Source: Candidatus Nealsonbacteria bacterium (GTDB lineage: Bacteria; Patescibacteriota; Minisyncoccia; Minisyncoccales; MHMH01). Taken from it: a stretch of DNA of 32,835 nt. The stretch covers positions 1 to 32,835 of the forward strand of contig JAUYKD010000038.1 in NCBI GenBank assembly GCA_030700195.1, in the 5' to 3' direction. Positions 5,391-31,183 of the stretch are shown piece by piece. Numbering within the stretch: the stretch's first letter is position 1; every line of letters starts with the position of its first letter. The position numbers and the translations under genes are program-made. The notes beneath the pieces are model-generated. The model was not told the DNA's origin and did not search any database. It was given only the letters and a program-made list of their open reading frames with translations.

Positions 5391-5490
5391 CTTCATTCCC
5401 TTTATCCCGCAAAGCGGGACTCGGATCGTGGTCGATGAATCTAAAGATTCATCTCCACCTTCGTCCCGCAAAGCGGGACTCGGTGCTTGA
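5391..5490 (+). repeat. Family 2 bipartite hairpin element, two tandem units
   Basis: Unit a is ...TCCCGCaaagCGGGACTCGG. Unit b is GATGAATCTaaAGATTCATCTCCACCTTCGTCCCGCaaagCGGGACTCGGTGCTTGA. The hairpin of unit b is the reverse complement of the one at 14455-14474. Confidence 0.75.
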
Positions 5491-5551: not shown

Positions 5552-5980
5552 ATGAAAATGGATATAAGATCTGGTTACCTTGATATTGCTGTTGCAATTA
5601 TCCAAAATGGTGAGCATGTTTTGATTGCCCAAAGGTCTCAATATCAAAGTCATCCTGGAAAATGGGAATTTCCTGGTGGAAAAGTAGAACCCAGCGAGGC
5701 GCTTGAAGATTGTTTGAAGCGAGAACTTTTAGAAGAGCTTGAGATAAAGATTCGAGTTGGAGAACGATTTTTAGTTTTTGAGCATAACTATGAGCCACTA
5801 GACAAAAAGATTCATCGTTTCTTTAGTTTTTGGTGCGAAATTTTGGAAGGAAAACCTCTTCTAAAAGAACATCAAAACCTTGCCTGGGTTAGGATCGAAG
5901 AGTTGTCCAATTACGATTTCATTGAAGCAGATATACAACTTGTCGAAATTCTTTTAATTAAAGAAAAGAAAGCCTTGTGA
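5552..5980 (+). CDS. NUDIX hydrolase (MutT-like)
   Basis: Nudix box GGKVEPSEALEDCLKRELLEELEI. The ORF-track start 5435 lies inside the repeat element, so ATG 5552 (or 5558) is preferred. Confidence 0.8.
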   Translation: MKMDIRSGYLDIAVAIIQNGEHVLIAQRSQYQSHPGKWEFPGGKVEPSEALEDCLKRELLEELEIKIRVGERFLVFEHNYEPLDKKIHRFFSFWCEILEGKPLLKEHQNLAWVRIEELSNYDFIEADIQLVEILLIKEKKAL

Positions 5981-8442: not shown

Positions 8443-8452
8443 CGAATTATTT

Positions 8453-8546
8453 ACCGAGTCCCGCGTAGCGGCAATGAGATAAATCTCATTTTGAACTTCA
8501 CTGCAGTTCGTTGGTTGAAGGTAGAAGATGAGGTTCGCTCATCGCC
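8453..8546 (-). repeat. Family 2 bipartite hairpin element, two units, between rpmB and tRNA-Pro
   Basis: Read on the minus strand: GGCGATGAGcgaaCCTCATCTTCTACCTTC...then...GCCGCTACGCGGGACTCGGTAAATAATT. The first hairpin contains the rpmB stop codon. Confidence 0.7.
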
Positions 8547-9428: not shown

Positions 9429-9533
9429 CCGAGTTCCGCGTAGCGGGACGAAGGTGGAAAAGAGGGCGAAGTCCTCTTTGACTTTAACCGAGTCCCGCAT
9501 AGCGGAACGAAGGTTCAAAGAATTTTATTCTTT
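9429..9533 (-). repeat. Family 2 bipartite hairpin element, two units (inverted orientation)
   Basis: CCGAGTTCCGCgtagCGGGACGAAGGT + AAGAGGgcgaagtCCTCTT, then CCGAGTCCCGCatagCGGAACGAAGGT + AAAGAATtttATTCTTT. Confidence 0.75.
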
Positions 9534-12908: not shown

Positions 12909-13036
12909 CCCCGTTAGAAGTCTTAGCCAGAAAAAATTATTTTAATTTTTTCTGCAAGGCATAACGAGGGTATAACTAAAAACAAAGGTTTATCTGAAAT
13001 TAGCTTTGTGATATATAAGACAGACTTCTAACGGGG
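12909..13036 (+). repeat. Family 1 stem-closed element, long form (copy A, 128 nt)
   Basis: CCCCGTTAGAAGTC...GACTTCTAACGGGG termini, flanked by TTGA/TTGA. The internal sequence is very similar to copies C and D. Confidence 0.8.
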
Positions 13037-13065
13037 TTGACAATTCTTTCCAAGTTTACTAAGAT
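13037..13065 (+). promoter_or_regulatory. Candidate tuf promoter abutting element A
   Basis: TTGACA (13037-13042; its first 4 nt are the direct repeat flanking the element), 17 nt spacer, TAAGAT (13060-13065). Confidence 0.4.
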
Positions 13066-13077
13066 AATAGCTAGTTG

Positions 13078-13130
13078 CCAAGTCCCGCGCAGCGGAACAA
13101 AGGCAAAGATGAGAACGAAATTCTCATCGC
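13078..13130 (-). repeat. Family 2 bipartite hairpin element (inverted orientation)
   Basis: CCAAGTCCCGCgcagCGGAACAAAGGCAAA-GATGAGAAcgaaaTTCTCATCGC. Confidence 0.7.
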
Positions 13131-14370: not shown

Positions 14371-14476
14371 AGCGAGTCCGCCTGAGGCGGACGAAGCTTA
14401 AGATGAAATTTATTTCATCGCCCAGCGAGTCCCGCTTAGCGGGACGAAGCTGGAGATGAATCTTTAGATTCATCGA
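14371..14476 (-). repeat. Family 2 bipartite hairpin element, two units (inverted orientation)
   Basis: AGCGAGTCCGCCtgaGGCGGACGAAGC + GATGAAATttATTTCATCGCC, then AGCGAGTCCCGCttagCGGGACGAAGC + GATGAATCTttAGATTCATCGAC. Confidence 0.8.
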
Positions 14477-16237: not shown

Positions 16238-16284
16238 AAATAAATTTTAATCTTCAACTTCGTTCCGCTATAGCGGAACTCGGT
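16233..16284 (+). repeat. Family 2 bipartite hairpin element
   Basis: GATGAAAATaaATTTTAATCTTCAACTTCGTTCCGCtataGCGGAACTCGGT. The rplD stop TGA is inside the first hairpin. It is followed by AAATAATTATG (rplW start). Confidence 0.75.
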
Positions 16285-17606: not shown

Positions 17607-17645
17607 ATTTCTTTTCTACCTTCGTCCTGCTTCGCAGGACTCGGT
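17598..17645 (+). repeat. Family 2 bipartite hairpin element
   Basis: AAAGAAATaaATTTCTTTTCTACCTTCGTCCTGCttcGCAGGACTCGGT. The rplB stop TAA is in the first hairpin. It is followed by AAATAATTATG (rpsS start), identical to the rplW context. Confidence 0.75.
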
Positions 17646-17981: not shown

Positions 17982-18117
17982 CCCCGTTAGAAGTCTTAGA
18001 ATTTAAAATTTTGATGAGAAAATTTTTAAATTTGAATAAATAAAATATATCAACTATAAAAATCAACTATGTCCAATAATAATTATCATAGAACAGAAAA
18101 AGCAACTTCTAACGGGG
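17982..18117 (+). repeat. Family 1 stem-closed element, long form (copy B, 136 nt, divergent interior)
   Basis: CCCCGTTAGAAGTC...(A)ACTTCTAACGGGG, flanked by TGAA/TGAA. The interior is unrelated to copies A, C and D. Confidence 0.75.
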
Positions 18118-18506
18118 TGAAAAGCAAAGCCAAACTCAACTATTTAAGAATAGCTCCGAGAAAAGTAAGATTGGTGGCCGATATAATTCGCGGCAAATCT
18201 GTTTTTGACGCCAGGAATATTTTGGGCTTTACTATTAAGAAAGCGGCTCATCCCATGTTGAAGCTTTTGAATTCAGCCGTAGCTAATGCCGGGGATATGC
18301 CAGTAGAGAATCTTTTCATATCAAAAGTTGAGGTTAATGAAGGCCCGAAATTAAAAAGGTCCAGGCCCAGAGCTCGGGGCAGAGCATACGAGATACAGAA
18401 AAAGACAAGTCATATTATTATTGTTCTGGATGAAAAAATAACAAAATCTAAAAAACCCAGAAGAAAGGCAAAACCTTCCGCTGGTCTAAAAAAACATGAG
18501 TCATAA
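18117..18506 (+). CDS. rplV: 50S ribosomal protein L22
   Basis: GTG 18117 gives (M)KSKAKLNYLRIAPRKVRLVADIIRGK, the usual spacing to the RKVRLVAD motif. The track ATG 18069 is in-frame but inside element B. Lys-rich C-terminal tail overlaps rpsC. Confidence 0.85.
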   Translation: MKSKAKLNYLRIAPRKVRLVADIIRGKSVFDARNILGFTIKKAAHPMLKLLNSAVANAGDMPVENLFISKVEVNEGPKLKRSRPRARGRAYEIQKKTSHIIIVLDEKITKSKKPRRKAKPSAGLKKHES

Positions 18507-19545: not shown

Positions 19546-19677
19546 CCCCGTTAGAAGTCCTAGCCCGAAAAAATTTAGATTAAATTTTTTCTGCAAGGCA
19601 ATAACGAGGGAATAACCAATAATAAATGTTTGTCTGAAATTAGCTTTGTGCTATATTAAGATAGACTTCTAACGGGG
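19546..19677 (+). repeat. Family 1 stem-closed element, long form (copy C, 132 nt)
   Basis: CCCCGTTAGAAGTC...GACTTCTAACGGGG, flanked by TGAA/TGAA. The last G is the first base of the rpmC GTG. Confidence 0.8.
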
Positions 19678-19910
19678 TGAAGATACAAGACCTTCGCCAA
19701 AAAACAAAGCAAGAAATCGCAAAACTCCTGGTTGATAGCCGGGAACGTTTAAGATTATTAAGATTTGACCTGGCAGCCGGCAAAGTGAAAAATGTCAGGG
19801 AAATCAGACAGCTTAAAAAAGATATTGCCAGAATATTAACATTGCTAATTGAGCTCCGCGATAGCGGAGCGAAGATAAAGAAGAGAATAAAATTCTCTTC
19901 GCCTAAATAA
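19677..19910 (+). CDS. rpmC: 50S ribosomal protein L29, C-terminal about 18 aa encoded by a family 2 repeat
   Basis: (M)KIQDLRQKTKQEIAKLLVDSRERLRLLRFDLAAGKVKNVREIRQLKKDIARILT is L29. The tail LRDSGAKIKKRIKFSSPK is read from the hairpin element 19851-19903. Confidence 0.9.
   Translation: MKIQDLRQKTKQEIAKLLVDSRERLRLLRFDLAAGKVKNVREIRQLKKDIARILTLLIELRDSGAKIKKRIKFSSPK
19851..19903 (-). repeat. Family 2 bipartite hairpin element inside the rpmC 3' end (inverted orientation)
   Basis: GAGCTCCGCgataGCGGAGCGAAGATAAA-GAAGAGAATaaaATTCTCTTCGCC. Confidence 0.7.
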
Positions 19911-19914
19911 CATG

Positions 19915-20046
19915 CCCCGTTAGAAGTCTTAGCCAGAAAAAATTTGAATTAAATTTTTTCTGCAAGGCAATAACGAGGGTATAACCAATAATAAATATTT
20001 GTCTGAAATTAGTTTTATGCTATATTAAGACAAACTTCTAACGGGG
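19915..20046 (+). repeat. Family 1 stem-closed element, long form (copy D, 132 nt)
   Basis: CCCCGTTAGAAGTC...(A)ACTTCTAACGGGG, flanked by CATG/TATG. The rpsQ ATG starts 2 nt after the element. Confidence 0.8.
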
Positions 20047-20047
20047 T

Positions 20048-20783: not shown

Positions 20784-20837
20784 GCGATGAGAATAGAATT
20801 CTCATCTTCAACTTCGTCCCGCTGCGCGGGACTCGTT
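20783..20837 (+). repeat. Family 2 bipartite hairpin element
   Basis: (TA)GGCGATGAGAATagAATTCTCATCTTCAACTTCGTCCCGCtgcGCGGGACTCGTT, followed by CAATG (rplX start). Confidence 0.8.
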
Positions 20838-22831: not shown

Positions 22832-23191
22832 ATGTTTAATAAACACCAAACAAGAGAACGTCGAAAAAGAAGAGTCAGAGCGAAAATGTCAGGCACAGCC
22901 AAAAAGCCCCGTCTTTGCGTTTTCAGGTCTTTAAATCATATTTATGCCCAGTTGGTGGATGATGAAAAAGGAAAGACTATTATGGCTGCTAACGATAAAG
23001 AGATTAAAAAAGGGAAGAGAACTAAAGTTGATTTAGCCAGGGAAGTAGGAAAGCTGATTGCCAAGAAGGCAAAAGACCTGCCCGCCAGTCGGCGGGTTGA
23101 AAAAGTTGTTTTTGACAGAGGTTCTTATAAGTACCACGGCCGAGTTAAGGGGGTGGCGGAAGGAGCCAGGGAAGGCGGGTTGAAGTTTTAA
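22832..23191 (+). CDS. rplR: 50S ribosomal protein L18
   Basis: ...PRLCVFRSLNHIYAQLVDD...FDRGSYKYHGRVKGVAEGAREGGLKF. Confidence 0.93.
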   Translation: MFNKHQTRERRKRRVRAKMSGTAKKPRLCVFRSLNHIYAQLVDDEKGKTIMAANDKEIKKGKRTKVDLAREVGKLIAKKAKDLPASRRVEKVVFDRGSYKYHGRVKGVAEGAREGGLKF

Positions 23192-29418: not shown

Positions 29419-29922
29419 ATGGAAGATATTATAAGCGGTCATTTCTACAATCCGACCAAAGGCAACCTTACTTTTGACGAAGTTATTAAAGAAATCTTCG
29501 GTTACATAGCTCAAGATAAGGAGAAGTTCTACGACATTGTCGTTGGGTGCGATTCTTCTTCGGGAGAGGAGCCGACCTTTCCGGTTGTTATAGTCGCCTT
29601 GAGAAAAGGCGGAGGAGGAAGGTTTTTCCTTAAAAGAATAAAATATTCTTCAGACAGGAAGTTTTACAATTGGAAAGAAAGAATTTTGAATGAGGTTTAT
29701 CTTTCCTGCCAGATGGCTCTTATTTTGAAAGAAAAAATAGCCGGCCTTAAAACAAATTTTCTTAACTATGAGTTTCGTTATATTCATGCTGATGTGGGGG
29801 AGAACGGAGCTACCAAAGACATGGTTAAAGAAGTAACCGGCCTTATCCGGGGCAATGGATTTGAGCCAAAGATTAAGCCAGAATCCTATGTTGCTTCGGT
29901 AGTGGCAGACAGATATGCCTAA
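29419..29922 (+). CDS. YkuK/DUF458-like RNase H-fold protein
   Basis: FYNPTKGNLTFDEVIKEI...VVGCDSS...VVIVALRKGGGGRFF pattern recalled from the YkuK family. Tentative. Confidence 0.5.
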   Translation: MEDIISGHFYNPTKGNLTFDEVIKEIFGYIAQDKEKFYDIVVGCDSSSGEEPTFPVVIVALRKGGGGRFFLKRIKYSSDRKFYNWKERILNEVYLSCQMALILKEKIAGLKTNFLNYEFRYIHADVGENGATKDMVKEVTGLIRGNGFEPKIKPESYVASVVADRYA

Positions 29923-31030
29923 AAAGATAATTGTTGCTATGTCGGGAGGGGTTGATTCCTCTGTGGCAGCTGCCCTGCTCAAGAAGCAGGGGTTTGTTGT
30001 TATCGGGGTTTTTATGAAGTTTTGGCTTGCCCGCCGAAGCCCTGGCGAAGGCGGGAAAGCTTTTAACAGGTGCTGCTCTTCTGACGCAGAAAGAAGAGCG
30101 AGAGAAGTTGCTTCAATTCTTGATATTCCTTTTTATGTTTTTAATTTTGAAAAAGAGTTTAAAAAGAGAGTGGTTGATTATTTTTTGAAAGAGTATGCTG
30201 CGGGCCGCACTCCCAATCCTTGCGTTGTTTGCAATAAAGACATTAAATTCGGTCTTTTGCTGGAACGAACTTTATCTCTCAAAGCTGATTTCATCGCTAC
30301 GGGCCATTATGTTCGCAAAGCAGGCAATAAATTATTCAAAGGAAAAGATAAAGAAAAAGACCAGAGTTATTTTTTATGGCAGCTTTCTCAAAAACAGCTG
30401 AAACATTCTTTGTTTCCGTTGGGCTCTTATACTAAGAAACAAGTAAAAGAGATGGCCAAGAAGTTTGGCTTGCCGGTTTTATCAATTCCTGAATCCCAGG
30501 AAATTTGTTTTGTTGAAAATACTATTGGCGAGTTTTTAACAAAATACATAAAACAGAAAAAAGGTGAAATAGTTGATGCTCAAGGAAAAGTTTTAGGTGA
30601 GCATCAGGGTTTAAGCTTATATACTATCGGCCAGAGAAGGGGATTAGGTTTTATTGGTGGCCCCGCCTTCGCTAAACCCGCCTGCCGGCGAGGCAGGGCT
30701 TCGGCGGGCAAGCCTTATTGGGTGTTGAGAAAGGATTTGAAAATGAATGTTTTGGTTATAACCAAGGACGAAGAAGATTTATTTGAAAAAGAATTATTTT
30801 TCAAAGAAGCCAATTGGATTTCTGGAAAATCTCCTAAGGTTCCAGCAATTCTTAAAGCGACAATCAGATACCGGCATAAAGTTGTTCAAGGAGTTTTGCA
30901 AAAAGGCAACAGGTTTATTTTTAACAAGCCTCAAAGAGCCATAACTCCGGGCCAATCAATAGTTTTTTACCTGCCTCGCCGGCAGGCAGGTAAAGGCCAG
31001 GAACTTTTAGGCGGAGGCATCATCCGGTAG
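29915..31030 (+). CDS. mnmA: tRNA 2-thiouridine(34) synthase MnmA, with three in-frame GC-rich palindromic inserts
   Basis: PP-loop MSGGVDSSVAA, GRTPNPCVVCNKDIKF, ATGHY, KDQSYFL. Confidence 0.9.
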   Translation: MPKKIIVAMSGGVDSSVAAALLKKQGFVVIGVFMKFWLARRSPGEGGKAFNRCCSSDAERRAREVASILDIPFYVFNFEKEFKKRVVDYFLKEYAAGRTPNPCVVCNKDIKFGLLLERTLSLKADFIATGHYVRKAGNKLFKGKDKEKDQSYFLWQLSQKQLKHSLFPLGSYTKKQVKEMAKKFGLPVLSIPESQEICFVENTIGEFLTKYIKQKKGEIVDAQGKVLGEHQGLSLYTIGQRRGLGFIGGPAFAKPACRRGRASAGKPYWVLRKDLKMNVLVITKDEEDLFEKELFFKEANWISGKSPKVPAILKATIRYRHKVVQGVLQKGNRFIFNKPQRAITPGQSIVFYLPRRQAGKGQELLGGGIIR

Positions 31031-31047
31031 AATGTACCTGAAAACCC

Positions 31048-31076
31048 TTGACAAATCTGACGTGATATGGTATAAT
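31048..31076 (+). promoter_or_regulatory. Consensus sigma70 promoter
   Basis: TTGACA (31048-31053), exactly 17 nt spacer, TATAAT (31071-31076). Confidence 0.6.
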
Positions 31077-31183
31077 GCTGACATAGAAGAGAGATAAAGA
31101 ATATTAGAAAATTACGGGCGGTTCTCTCTTCTTAGAGTAGAACCGCCCTTTACATTAAAAATTTTTTAGAAAGGAGAGCTAAA

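What the first reader, a model, noticed from the sequence alone, without database searches (positions are those of the whole stretch)
30030..30986. Nested GC-rich palindromic inserts translated in-frame within mnmA
Three GC-rich islands interrupt conserved MnmA blocks in an otherwise AT-rich gene. (1) 30030-30055 is CCCGCCGAAGCCCTGGCGAAGGCGGG (protein ...ARRSPGEGGKA...). (2) 30662-30708 is CCCGCCTTCGC-TAAACCCGCCTGCCGGCGAGGC-AGGGCTTCGGCGGG (protein ...GGPAFAKPACRRGRASAGK...). It equals the reverse complement of insert 1 with an extra 22-nt piece nested inside. (3) 30970-30986 is CCTGCCTCGCCGGCAGG (protein ...LPRRQAGKG...), the reverse complement of the nested piece CCTGCCGGCGAGGCAGG at 30681-30697. 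The same palindromic modules therefore occur in both orientations, nested, always preserving the reading frame. This resembles Rickettsia palindromic elements. No other copies were seen in this window.
Basis: partly seen in the sequence, partly recalled or inferred. Interest (0 to 1): 0.7.

Follow-up and report, generated by a model that had tools for sequence, protein, structure and literature searches.

The report
Tiny GC palindromes inserted in mnmA
Three short GC-rich hairpin repeats, from families scattered through many uncultured bacteria, sit in-frame in loop-coding parts of a tRNA-modification gene of a Patescibacteria (CPR) bacterium: a known kind of probably selfish DNA, here unusually small, modular, nested and widespread.

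Summary
mnmA (29915-31030, +) carries GC-rich palindromes at three places. They resolve into two modules:
- E1: 26-nt hairpin CCCGCC-TTC-GC-YRAR-GC-TTC-GGCGGG plus a CARG tail, 30 nt in all.
- E2: 21 nt, CCYGCCTGCCGGC(N)AGGCAGG.

Site 1 is E1 reversed. Site 2 is E1 with E2 inserted after its apical loop. Site 3 is E2 reversed.

The closest, syntenic orthologue has all three sites empty. Among 120 orthologues the inserts are patchy, and the same loops hold different palindromes in different lineages. The element DNA is 95-100% identical between orthologues whose genes are about 67% identical.

E1, E2 and the composite also occur in unrelated genes, in probable intergenic DNA, next to or inside tRNA genes, and in contigs labelled as at least 10 phyla. 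Coding copies keep the reading frame, once through a compensating +1/-1 pair. A structure model puts all three inserts in loops.

Best reading: dispersed REP/RPE-like palindromic repeats, tolerated and translated in permissive loops. How they spread is unknown. In-frame palindromic repeats are already known (RPEs, intragenic REPs, yeast mitochondrial GC clusters). No paper searched reports these sequences. I rate it a new variant of a known kind.

The parts
29915..31030 (+). mnmA (tRNA 2-thiouridine(34) synthase), 371 aa, intact ORF that hosts the inserts
   Evidence: ORF list. Pfam PF03054, PF20259 and PF20258. PDB MnmA 9hln/2hma/2der, E = 1e-70 to 2e-75 over residues 4-370. The PP-loop SGGVDSS, the CxxC motif (C103, C106) and C198 are conserved in the alignment.
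30026..30055 (-). Site 1: E1 module in reverse (GAA) orientation, CTTG-CCCGCC-GAA-GC-CCTG-GC-GAA-GGCGGG. It encodes LARRSPGEGG (residues 38-47).
   Evidence: Sequence. The same 30-mer is identical in L001 and L180 and differs by 1 nt in the window. It is absent in L003, L178, L002, L181 and L182. Predicted hairpin of 6-bp stem, 3x3 loop, 2-bp stem and tetraloop. The model places it in loop 36-55, with pLDDT below 50 at residues 40-50.
30662..30676 (+). Site 2: left half of E1 (CCCGCC-TTC-GC-TAAA), forward orientation
   Evidence: The simple, un-nested E1 occupies the same codon position in L181 and in about 15 other orthologues as PAFAKA[ST]AGK.
30677..30697 (+). Site 2: E2 module (CCCGCCTGCCGGCGAGGCAGG, 21 nt) nested directly after the apical loop of E1
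   Evidence: L002 has the same junction but with the 20-nt perfect-palindrome version of E2 and a compensating +1 G in the E1 right arm. The same composite junction occurs in 13 metagenome contigs, mostly outside mnmA.
30698..30712 (+). Site 2: right half of E1 (GC-TTC-GGCGGG-CAAG). The whole composite 30662-30712 encodes PAFAKPACRRGRASAGK (residues 250-266).
   Evidence: The model places it in loop 241-268, with pLDDT below 50 at residues 247-264. The solved MnmA structures have a shorter loop here (gaps in the alignment).
30970..30990 (-). Site 3: E2 module in reverse orientation (CCTGCCTCGCCGGCAGGCAGG). The net 21-nt insert encodes LPRRQAG (residues 353-359).
   Evidence: Empty sites in L001, L002 and L181 read TTTTATAAAGG, so E2 sits at the centre of TTTA|TAAA. 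L178 has a nearly identical E2 at the same place (20/21) and L182 has an E1-like hairpin there instead. The model places it in the turn between strands 348-352 and 363-370.
23081..23096 (.). Related mini-hairpin CCCGCC-AGTC-GGCGGG in-frame in rplR (ribosomal protein L18, 22832-23191), with the same arms as E1
   Evidence: A 4-residue insert (LPAS) plus KK to RR, relative to the syntenic L18 of L001 and L180. Listed as a GC island and as a hairpin.

Best explanation
The three islands are copies of two families of very short GC-rich palindromic repeats: E1, a 26-nt hairpin plus a 4-nt tail, and E2, 21 nt. These families are dispersed in Patescibacteria and many other uncultured bacteria. Copies have landed in three positions of mnmA that encode loops. 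One E2 sits next to the apical loop of an E1.

E1 (30 nt) and E2 (21 nt) are multiples of three. E2 and E1 with the CAAG loop are also stop-free in all six frames. Such copies therefore lengthen a loop without breaking the gene, and they persist where the protein tolerates them. They are read through as extra, mostly basic and glycine/alanine-rich, loop residues.

Shown here: the repeat nature, the dispersal, the patchy presence among orthologues, the nesting, frame preservation, and loop location in a model.

Inferred: that the inserts are translated and roughly neutral (selfish DNA).

Unknown: how they spread. My favoured guess is a process that acts on extruded or single-stranded hairpins and prefers hairpin tips, either a trans-acting hairpin-specific enzyme of the REP/RAYT or IS200/IS605 type, or copy-and-paste by recombination or gene conversion between copies.
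For: Not native MnmA:
- The closest, syntenic orthologue L003 has all three sites empty.
- L001, L179 and L180 carry only site 1, L178 only site 3, and L002 and L181 only site 2.
- On a tree of 120 homologues with insert columns masked, carriers are scattered, and the window's nearest neighbours lack all three.

Same loops, different palindromes:
- Site 3 holds E2 in the window and L178, and an E1-like hairpin in L182.
- In L244 and L245, site 3 holds CCCGCC/GGCGGG arms with other inner hairpins.
- Site 1 holds E1 in five lineages, and an unrelated 22-nt perfect palindrome in L182.

DNA is conserved, the peptide is not:
- E1 is 29-30/30 identical and E2 20/21 identical between orthologues. Their genes are 66-70% identical in DNA, and about 50-60% identical at synonymous third positions.
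- Window and L002 composites differ by a compensated -1/+1 pair that changes the peptide from RRGRAS to RQAGLR.
- A related 36-mer is read in two frames within a single mnmA gene.

Dispersal:
Of these, 52 are canonical 26-mers; 44 of the 52 have a YRAR loop and 21 of the 52 a CARG tail.
- E2 is in 54 viral contigs.
- The composite is in 13 metagenome contigs, mostly in short-ORF, probably intergenic, places.

In-frame in unrelated proteins: a Pyr_redox_2 oxidoreductase, DUF2298, two GT4 glycosyltransferases, a class I aaRS, a primase and a phage portal protein; also cysteine desulfurase and L18 in this window.

tRNA genes: copies abut tRNA genes or lie inside tRNA loops.

Frame and structure:
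- Coding E2 copies are the 21-nt form or are compensated, whereas 4 of 7 probable intergenic composites carry the 20-nt form.
- E2 and E1 with the CAAG loop are stop-free in six frames.
- All three inserts fall in coil or low-confidence loops of the model, and in gaps relative to solved MnmA structures.

Precedent: intragenic REPs, including in tRNA-modification genes, are documented (PMC3733652).
Against: - No transposase or other mobilising gene was found. There is none among the 10 window ORFs scanned against Pfam, and no systematic search was possible.
- No clear target-site duplication was seen. There is only a weak tendency for CC after the tail (11/52).
- Within the 32.8-kb window, E1 and E2 occur only in mnmA, so copy number in this genome is unknown.
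- Site 1 is a replacement of about 7-8 native residues with the same boundaries in all carriers. That fits a single origin with later recombination at least as well as repeated insertion.
- L244 and L245 show that mnmA alleles do recombine.
- The very high DNA conservation of the copies, and of the unpaired GAA/TTC internal loop, could mean a function at the DNA or RNA level rather than recent insertion.
- Translation of the inserts is not demonstrated.
Confidence: 0.72

Rival explanations
1. The hairpins are functional nucleic-acid elements. They could be RNA structures or protein-binding sites affecting mRNA stability, processing, translation pausing or tRNA maturation, retained in mnmA because of that function. 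The extra amino acids would then be a by-product.
For: - The sequence is conserved far beyond neutral expectation, including the unpaired GAA/TTC internal loop.
- Relatives (E3) lie between ribosomal-protein genes, close to start codons.
- In four Patescibacteria lineages E1 lies directly 5' of a tRNA gene, sharing its 3' arm with the acceptor stem.
- The RNA hairpins are stable, at -11.7 to -25.4 kcal/mol.
- The REP literature argues that many REPs act as RNA elements (PMC3733652).
Against: - Copies occur in both orientations within the same mRNA and in intergenic DNA. GAA/GAA and UUC/UUC loops are not equivalent as RNA.
- Close orthologues do without the inserts.
- The copy in the cysteine desulfurase gene has drifted, with 5 of 26 positions changed in L002.
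- Fold z-scores are modest, -0.3 to -2.2.
- There is no Rfam family.
Confidence: 0.15
2. The segments are native, adaptive MnmA loops, for instance basic loops that help bind tRNA or a sulfur-relay partner. They would be ancestral in this clade and repeatedly lost.
For: - The same three loops carry extra residues in many orthologues.
- The encoded peptides are rich in Arg and Lys.
- All site-1 carriers share the same boundaries.
Against: - The same DNA occurs in unrelated proteins, in several reading frames, and in non-coding DNA across phyla.
- The peptide changes while the DNA is kept.
- Different palindromes occupy the same loop.
- The nearest relatives lack the inserts.
- The loops are of low confidence and absent from the solved MnmA structures.
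Confidence: 0.05
3. The inserts are not translated. They would be skipped by the ribosome, as the GC-cluster-derived 'byp' elements of Magnusiomyces mitochondria are, or removed from the mRNA.
For: There is a precedent for GC-rich palindromic inserts being bypassed in mitochondria (PMC8811140). The stable hairpins could act as take-off or landing structures.
Against: - All coding copies examined keep the frame with no stop codon.
- The one 20-nt (non-3n) copy is accompanied by a compensating +1 a few bases downstream. That would be unnecessary if the segment were skipped.
- Probable intergenic copies do not keep 3n length.
Confidence: 0.04
4. Assembly or sequencing artefact, or chance GC-rich palindromes.
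For: The window is a metagenome-type contig. Hairpins can cause assembly errors.
Against: The same elements appear at the same codons in independent assemblies from NCBI, JGI and ENA. The chance expectation is 0.01 for the 17-mer pair. GC hairpins number 26 against 7.4 expected in the window.
Confidence: 0.01

Closest known systems
Intragenic REPs (repetitive extragenic palindromes found inside ORFs; Di Nocera et al. 2013, PMC3733652)
   Same: - Palindromic repeats of 20-40 bp, mostly intergenic.
- Some copies lie entirely within ORFs and add in-frame residues.
- Single, paired or clustered copies occur.
- Often found in genes for nucleic-acid-handling proteins, including tRNA synthetases and tRNA pseudouridine synthases.
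- No dedicated transposase is known for the CGTC class.
   Different: - E1 and E2 lack the unpaired GTAG or CGTC terminal tag that defines the two super-families.
- Here modules nest next to each other's apical loops.
- One 26-nt core is the same in contigs labelled as at least 10 phyla.
- Patescibacteria were not among the genomes surveyed in that paper.
Rickettsia palindromic elements (RPE; Ogata et al. 2000, cited from memory; RPE-4 and RPE-6 are equated with CGTC REPs in PMC3733652)
   Same: Palindromic repeats inserted in-frame into protein-coding genes of a small AT-rich genome. They are compatible with the reading frame and thought to sit at permissive surface positions. They are also found in non-coding DNA.
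   Different: - RPE-1 is roughly 100-150 bp (from memory), against 21-30 nt here.
- RPEs are families specific to Rickettsia.
- No sequence relationship was tested.
- RPE copies are diverged (from memory), whereas these are nearly identical across distant hosts.
GC clusters of yeast mitochondrial genomes, and the 'byp' elements derived from them (PMC8811140)
   Same: - Short GC-rich palindromes in an AT-rich genome.
- Mostly intergenic, with in-frame insertions in a coding gene (var1).
- They merge and shuffle into new composite clusters.
- They are regarded as mobile, with no known enzyme.
   Different: - They are organellar.
- They have terminal AG/TAG repeats read as target duplications, which are not seen here.
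- In Magnusiomyces they are bypassed in translation, whereas frame conservation here argues for translation.
Small dispersed repeats (SDR) of cyanobacteria (Elhai et al. 2008, Genome Res 18:1484; from memory, paper not held)
   Same: Very small (about 21-27 nt) hairpin-forming repeats that appear mobile, are found nested within one another, and occasionally lie within genes.
   Different: The sequences and hosts are different. I could not read the paper to compare features. Cross-phylum identity is not a feature I recall for SDRs.
[quoted passage not shown]
   Same: Non-autonomous, with inverted-repeat structure, dispersed, and able to insert in genes in-frame.
   Different: MITEs are usually 50-500 bp, with terminal inverted repeats derived from an IS element and flanking target duplications. 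E1 and E2 are a single 21-30-nt hairpin with no evident duplication or parent IS. The window's separate ~130-nt repeat with 15-nt terminal inverted repeats fits the MITE description better.

Membership tests
REP super-families (GTAG- or CGTC-tagged) as defined in PMC3733652 | Small (20-40 bp) palindromic unit forming a GC-rich stem-loop | tested here: met
   E1 is 26-30 nt and E2 20-21 nt. Predicted hairpins.
REP super-families (GTAG- or CGTC-tagged) as defined in PMC3733652 | Unpaired conserved tetranucleotide tag (GTAG or CGTC) at one end | tested here: not met
   Neither tag is present at the ends of E1 (CCCGCC...GGCGGG-CARG) or E2. The window's E3 family contains CGTC only as part of its stem, TTCGTCCCGC.
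REP super-families (GTAG- or CGTC-tagged) as defined in PMC3733652 | High copy number within one genome, predominantly intergenic | not testable with these tools
   Only 32.8 kb of this genome is available. It holds 2 E1 and 2 E2 copies, all in mnmA, plus at least 8 E3 copies, nearly all intergenic. Whole genomes could not be fetched.
REP super-families (GTAG- or CGTC-tagged) as defined in PMC3733652 | Association with a RAYT (REP-associated tyrosine transposase) gene, for the GTAG class | not tested
   No such gene among the 10 window ORFs scanned. No systematic search of carrier genomes was possible.
Rickettsia palindromic elements (RPE) | In-frame insertion in protein-coding genes at positions compatible with fold and function | tested here: met
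   Intact MnmA ORF with conserved catalytic motifs. The inserts lie in loops of the model. Function itself was not assayed.
Rickettsia palindromic elements (RPE) | Membership of one of the Rickettsia RPE sequence families | not tested
   No RPE consensus sequences were at hand. The host is Patescibacteria, not Rickettsia. Filed as an analogue, not a member.
MITE | Terminal inverted repeats flanking an internal region, with target-site duplication, 50-500 bp | tested here: not met
   The units are single hairpins of 21-30 nt. Filled and empty sites show no duplication at site 2 or site 3. A CC after the tail occurs in only 11 of 52 copies.
Mitochondrial GC clusters / byp elements | GC-rich palindrome in an AT-rich genome, in-frame in coding sequence, with composite or merged forms | tested here: met
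   The window is 39% GC, with the islands as outliers. Composite E1::E2 and swapped inner modules are seen. The resemblance is in behaviour only; the host is not an organelle.
Mitochondrial GC clusters / byp elements | Translational bypass of the insert (byp) | tested here: inconclusive
   3n lengths and a compensated frameshift argue for read-through. There are no protein data.
MnmA (tRNA 2-thiouridine(34) synthase), the host gene | PP-loop ATPase domain, central domain and C-terminal barrel, with catalytic cysteines | tested here: met
   Pfam PF03054, PF20259 and PF20258 all above cut-off. E = 2e-75 to solved MnmA structures. SGGVDSS, C103/C106 and C198 are conserved.

The most novel reading that the evidence does not exclude
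E1, E2 and their relatives belong to a previously undescribed, pan-bacterial class of ultra-small (about 15-30 nt) 'Russian-doll' hairpin modules. They spread, within and between phyla, by inserting preferentially at or next to the single-stranded tips of existing hairpins, including each other, and at other exposed sites such as tRNA gene ends and loops. An unknown hairpin-directed mechanism would drive this.

The direct GAA...GAA (or TTTTAGG...TTTTAGG) repeats flanking inner hairpins would then be footprints of such nested insertions. Protein loops would simply be where selection lets them stay.
Probability: 0.3. Interest if true: 0.8.

Novelty: new variant of a known kind. Interest (0 to 1): 0.62.

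Why it matters
Patescibacteria (CPR) have tiny, streamlined genomes, yet this one tolerates selfish-looking palindromes inside essential-pathway genes: mnmA and rplR here, and cysteine desulfurase, a class I aminoacyl-tRNA synthetase (IleRS/ValRS-like) and primase in relatives.

If these are mobile modules, three things follow:
- They are among the smallest repeat units reported, and they are a source of loop-length variation in CPR proteins.
- They are a practical nuisance for annotation, alignment and structure prediction of CPR proteins, because they create spurious 'conserved' peptides such as PAFAKASAGK and ARRSLGEGG.
- A nearly identical 26-nt core in contigs from at least 10 phyla needs explaining. 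It points either to frequent cross-phylum transfer or to a conserved, unknown hairpin-recognising activity.

The recurrent hits to the same loops also give a natural map of the permissive sites in MnmA.

Tried and rejected
- Rfam (gathering threshold) on the window and 14 loci found only tRNAs. There was no family for E1, E2, E3 or the 'N=7' class.
- Literature searches found nothing that describes these elements. I searched on CPR/Patescibacteria with palindromic or REP terms, and on the literal DNA and peptide strings; the string hits were coincidental primers and terminators.
- Elhai 2008 is not held.
- Curated plasmid and phage collections gave only weak partial hits, E = 0.02 at best. The elements seem confined to uncultured lineages.
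- No consistent target-site duplication or target consensus emerged. CC follows the tail in 11 of 52 copies, and E2 sites share no motif.
- The idea that E1 arose by insertion into the triloop of a simple CCCGCC-TTC-GGCGGG hairpin got only weak support. That hairpin occurs in 1 of 233 held loci, and in 10 viral contigs when followed by the CARG tail (my rough estimate of the chance expectation for that 19-mer is about 1).
- I looked for a clean presence/absence polymorphism in an isogenic background using P0063 and P0078. The genes are identical for about 935 nt and then about 14% diverged, so the indels lie in a recombinant segment and do not prove recent insertion.
- No transposase was found among the window genes scanned.
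- I considered that the many GC-rich-genome hits were chance terminator-like hairpins. I rejected this for the canonical class because loop (44/52 YRAR) and tail (21/52 CARG), which the search pattern did not constrain, are strongly non-random. The non-canonical hits (N other than 4) may include unrelated hairpins.
Full report

- The ORF 29915-31030 (+) is uninterrupted and encodes a 371-aa MnmA. All three Pfam MnmA domains are found, and it matches solved MnmA structures at E = 2e-75 over residues 4-370.
- The best-named homologues are from Candidatus Nealsonbacteria (Patescibacteria/CPR).
- The window is 39% GC, and the three islands are its longest GC-rich runs.
- The 17-mer CCTGCCGGCGAGGCAGG occurs exactly twice, on opposite strands, against 0.01 expected.
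- CCCGCCTTCGC occurs at 30045-30055 (-) and 30662-30672 (+).

- **E1** is a 26-nt hairpin, CCCGCC-TTC-GC-YRAR-GC-TTC-GGCGGG, usually followed by CARG, giving 30 nt. On the other strand it reads CTTG-CCCGCC-GAA-GC-YTYR-GC-GAA-GGCGGG.
- **E2** is 21 nt, CCYGCCTGCCGGC(N)AGGCAGG. A 20-nt perfect-palindrome version also exists.
- **Site 1** (30026-30055) is E1 reversed and encodes LARRSPGEGG.
- **Site 2** (30662-30712) is an E1 with a TAAA loop, with an E2 (30677-30697) inserted between TAAA and GCTTCGG. It encodes PAFAKPACRRGRASAGK.
- **Site 3** (30970-30990) is E2 reversed. Its net insert encodes LPRRQAG.

Folding gives the expected structure of 6-bp outer stem, 3x3 internal loop, 2-bp inner stem and tetraloop. 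RNA energies are -14.7, -25.4 and -11.7 kcal/mol, with modest z-scores.

**3. Are they native MnmA?** No.

- The closest orthologue, L003 (65% identical to the window's MnmA by BLASTP, 70% over gap-free columns; same TIM / RNaseH-like / MnmA gene order), has all three sites empty.
- The other syntenic loci carry only site 1 (L001, L179, L180) or only site 3 (L178). The NifU-linked loci carry only site 2 (L002, L181), or other palindromes (L182).
- Among 120 homologues, insert states are scattered over a tree built with insert columns masked. The window's nearest neighbours (P0002, P0039, P0114, P0106) lack all three.
- The same loops hold different palindromes in different lineages:
  - Site 3 has E2 in the window and L178.
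  - Site 3 has an E1-like TCCGCC-GAA-GC-CTCG-GC-GAA-GGCGGA in L182.
  - In L245 and L244, site 3 has CCCGCC/GGCGGG arms with yet other inner hairpins.
  - Site 1 has E1 in five lineages, and an unrelated perfect 22-nt palindrome (CCCCCACCACT|AGTGGTGGGGG) in L182.

**4. DNA is conserved, the peptide is not.**

- Between these orthologues the genes are 66-70% identical in DNA. Synonymous third positions are 50-60% identical. Yet the E1 30-mers at site 1 are 29-30/30 identical and E2 at site 3 is 20/21 identical, with identity ending at the element borders.
- The composite at site 2 of L002 (57% protein identity, different gene neighbourhood) has the same junctions as the window's. It carries the 20-nt E2 and an extra G in the E1 right arm. 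This compensated frameshift turns RRGRAS into RQAGLR.
- In L245 a related 36-mer occurs twice in one mnmA gene, read in two different frames: SPKESLRLPTGQAG and HPEGKPSASYGAG.
- E2 and E1 with the CAAG loop have no stop codon in any of six frames.

This is what is expected of DNA-level elements tolerated by the protein, not of selected peptides.

**5. Dispersal.**

- These come from many Patescibacteria classes (Shapiro-, Colwell-, Terry-, Kaiser-, Azam-, Komeili-, Taga-, Curtiss-, Peri- and Saccharibacteria). They also come from Bacteroidota, Alpha-, Beta- and Gammaproteobacteria, Acidobacteriota, Planctomycetota, Verrucomicrobiota/PVC, Nitrospirota, Myxococcota and others.
- Fifty-two are canonical 26-mers. 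Of these, 44 have a YRAR loop (3% expected) and 21 a CARG tail (under 1% expected). The pattern did not impose either feature.
- E2 is present in 54 viral contigs and E1 in 39.
- The E1::E2 composite, with the same junction, is in 13 metagenome contigs. Most are in short-ORF, probably intergenic, places. One (L192) is 1 nt from the window's copy across the 47-nt core, and one lies inside a primase gene.
- In low-GC loci, E1 or E2 lies in-frame in a pyridine-nucleotide disulfide oxidoreductase, a DUF2298 membrane protein, two GT4 glycosyltransferases, a class I aminoacyl-tRNA synthetase and a phage portal protein. At least four different reading frames are used in long ORFs.
- In L181 a canonical E1 lies in the cysteine desulfurase gene. 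The orthologous position in L002 holds a copy differing at 5 of 26 positions, which looks like an older, decaying insertion.
- In the window itself, rplR carries a 4-codon insert formed by CCCGCC-AGTC-GGCGGG.
- Curated plasmid and phage collections lack the elements.

**6. Modularity and targets.**

- L179 has the E1 outer arms and GAA loops, but its inner hairpin is GTCCCGC-TAA-GCGGGAC. That is the hairpin of the window's repeat family E3 (GAG-TCCCGC-nnn-GCGGGA-CGAA), which has at least 8 copies in both orientations, nearly all between ribosomal-protein genes.
- Together with the E2 cargo (window, L002, 13 metagenome contigs) and the other cargos at site 3 of L244 and L245, this shows constant outer arms with exchangeable inner hairpins. 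Insertion at or next to hairpin tips is therefore recurrent.
- E2 at site 3 of the window sits at the centre of the short palindrome TTTA|TAAA.
- E1 abuts the 5' end of tRNA genes in four Patescibacteria lineages, its 3' arm doubling as the start of the acceptor stem. E2 lies in the variable loop of a tRNA-Met that ARAGORN still calls, and in a D-loop.
- I could not derive a target consensus or a target duplication.

**7. Protein context.**

- An AlphaFold2 model (mean pLDDT 74, pTM 0.70) puts residues 38-47 in loop 36-55, and residues 250-266 in loop 241-268. These two inserts overlap two of the model's three stretches with pLDDT below 50 (residues 40-50 and 247-264). The third, 191-202, is unrelated to the inserts.
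- Residues 353-359 fall in the turn between strands 348-352 and 363-370.
- Solved MnmA structures have shorter loops at all three places.
- Catalytic motifs are intact.
- I did not map the loops onto the tRNA complex.

**8. Explanation.** The best-supported reading is as follows.

- E1 and E2 are dispersed REP/RPE-like palindromic repeats.
- Copies became fixed in mnmA where they lengthen permissive loops, and they are translated.
- Frame conservation supports translation. Coding copies are 3n or compensated, whereas 4 of 7 probable intergenic composites carry the 20-nt E2.
- The mode of spread is unknown, and no mobilising gene was seen.

Two facts complicate a simple 'repeated recent insertion' story.

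- Site 1 is a replacement of about 7-8 native residues with the same boundaries in all carriers.
- mnmA alleles recombine: L244 and L245 are identical for 935 nt and then 14% diverged.

A single gain followed by recombination, with copies kept canonical by gene conversion from other copies, therefore remains possible for some sites.

Rivals are listed with their tests: functional RNA/DNA hairpins, adaptive native loops, translational bypass and artefact. The first of these cannot be excluded and may coexist with the selfish reading.

**9. Comparison with what is known.** In-frame palindromic repeats are known.

- RPEs in Rickettsia are one case.
- Intragenic REPs occur in several phyla, including in tRNA synthetase and tRNA pseudouridine synthase genes (PMC3733652).
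- In-frame GC clusters occur in yeast mitochondrial var1, and these also merge and shuffle (PMC8811140).

E1 and E2 fail the defining GTAG/CGTC tag of the described REP super-families, and they are too small and simple for MITEs.

What appears new:
- the host group (CPR);
- the very small, 3n-sized modules;
- the nesting and cargo exchange;
- repeated occupation of the same protein loops by different palindromes;
- insertion at or in tRNA genes;
- a 26-nt core shared by contigs from at least 10 phyla.

No paper in the searchable library contains these sequences or peptides. That library is incomplete, and Elhai et al. 2008 could not be read.

**10. Verdict.** It is a new variant of a known kind. 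Interest is moderate to high, because of the cross-phylum, modular 'Russian-doll' behaviour and the unknown mechanism.

Noticed in passing
window 5405-5419, 5460-5481, 8443-8470, 9431-9452, 9490-9511, 13081-13098, 14374-14395, 14427-14448, 16259-16281, 17621-17642, 20813-20834: A REP-like hairpin family (E3: GAG-TCCCGC-nnn-GCGGGA-CGAA with a short outer stem). Copies lie between ribosomal-protein, EF-Tu and other genes, in both orientations, often in pairs. Three copies are followed by the same CTCGGTAAATAATT just before a start codon or a tRNA gene. It shares its architecture with E1, and a hybrid of the two is seen in L179.
   Followed up: partly
window 12909-13037, 17982-18118, 19546-19678, 19915-20047; L002 10676-10735: A ~130-nt repeat with 15-nt terminal inverted repeats (ACCCCGTTAGAAGTC...GACTTCTAACGGGGT). 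There are four copies, one with a different interior, which is MITE-like, and no Rfam match. A 60-nt relative with the same termini is inserted in-frame in the mnmA of L002 (HPVKSRRARISSKTKLFNGV). A similar peptide is at the N-terminus of P0020.
   Followed up: partly
window 23081-23096 (rplR, 22832-23191): Ribosomal protein L18 carries an in-frame 4-residue insert (LPAS, plus KK to RR) made by the hairpin CCCGCC-AGTC-GGCGGG. It is absent from the syntenic L18 genes of L001 and L180.
   Followed up: yes
window 31049-31150: Just downstream of mnmA there is a near-consensus promoter-like sequence (TTGACA, 17 nt, TATAAT). About 35 nt further on is a long hairpin, GGGCGGTTCTCTCTTCTTAGAGTAGAACCGCCC, followed by TTT. 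This could be a small RNA or a leader, and a short ORF follows it.
   Followed up: no
L181 1236-1265; L002 8567-8596; L182 (orthologous position): The cysteine desulfurase gene, in the same NifU-MnmA gene cluster as mnmA in these loci, carries an E1 (LARRSLGEGG) at one loop in all three lineages. The copy is canonical in L181 and has drifted in L002, with 5 of 26 positions changed. This looks like an older insertion caught decaying.
   Followed up: partly
L031 6383-6408, L018 2735-2768, L087 7333-7366, L116 848-874, L016 6639-6672; L157 2284-2303, L169 515-534, L126 8616-8635: E1 lies directly 5' of tRNA-Gly or tRNA-Pro genes in four Patescibacteria lineages, with its 3' arm forming the first bases of the acceptor stem, and at the 3' end of a tRNA-Trp. 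E2 is inserted in the variable loop of a tRNA-Met (L157, which ARAGORN still calls), at the same position in a tRNA-Met-like sequence that ARAGORN does not call (L126), and in a D-loop (L169) on viral contigs.
   Followed up: partly
L005, L020, L021, L023, L038, L069, L076, L084, L089, L097, L098: A separate conserved unit, GGGAACCGGTTT-CCCGCCTTCGCGAAGCCCGCTTCGGCGGG-CGAAGGAAGGTCGG (the 'N=7' class). It recurs in Alphaproteobacteria, Phycisphaerae and Ignavibacterium contigs. It looks like part of a larger conserved RNA or mobile element. No Rfam family reached threshold in the loci tested.
   Followed up: partly
L244 versus L245 (mnmA of P0078 and P0063): Two mnmA genes from different metagenomes are identical over the first ~935 nt and then about 14% diverged. 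This is a recombination mosaic. The diverged part differs by three palindromic indels, including a 36-nt element with direct TTTTAGG repeats flanking an inner hairpin.
   Followed up: partly
L122 (class I aminoacyl-tRNA synthetase ORF; E1 at 5856-5881) and L122 523-538: The Saccharibacteria synthetase with an in-frame E1 (PAFAKASAG) also has a second E1-like peptide (PSFVKASEGKS) further upstream in the protein. An E2 copy lies just upstream of a tRNA gene on the same contig.
   Followed up: no
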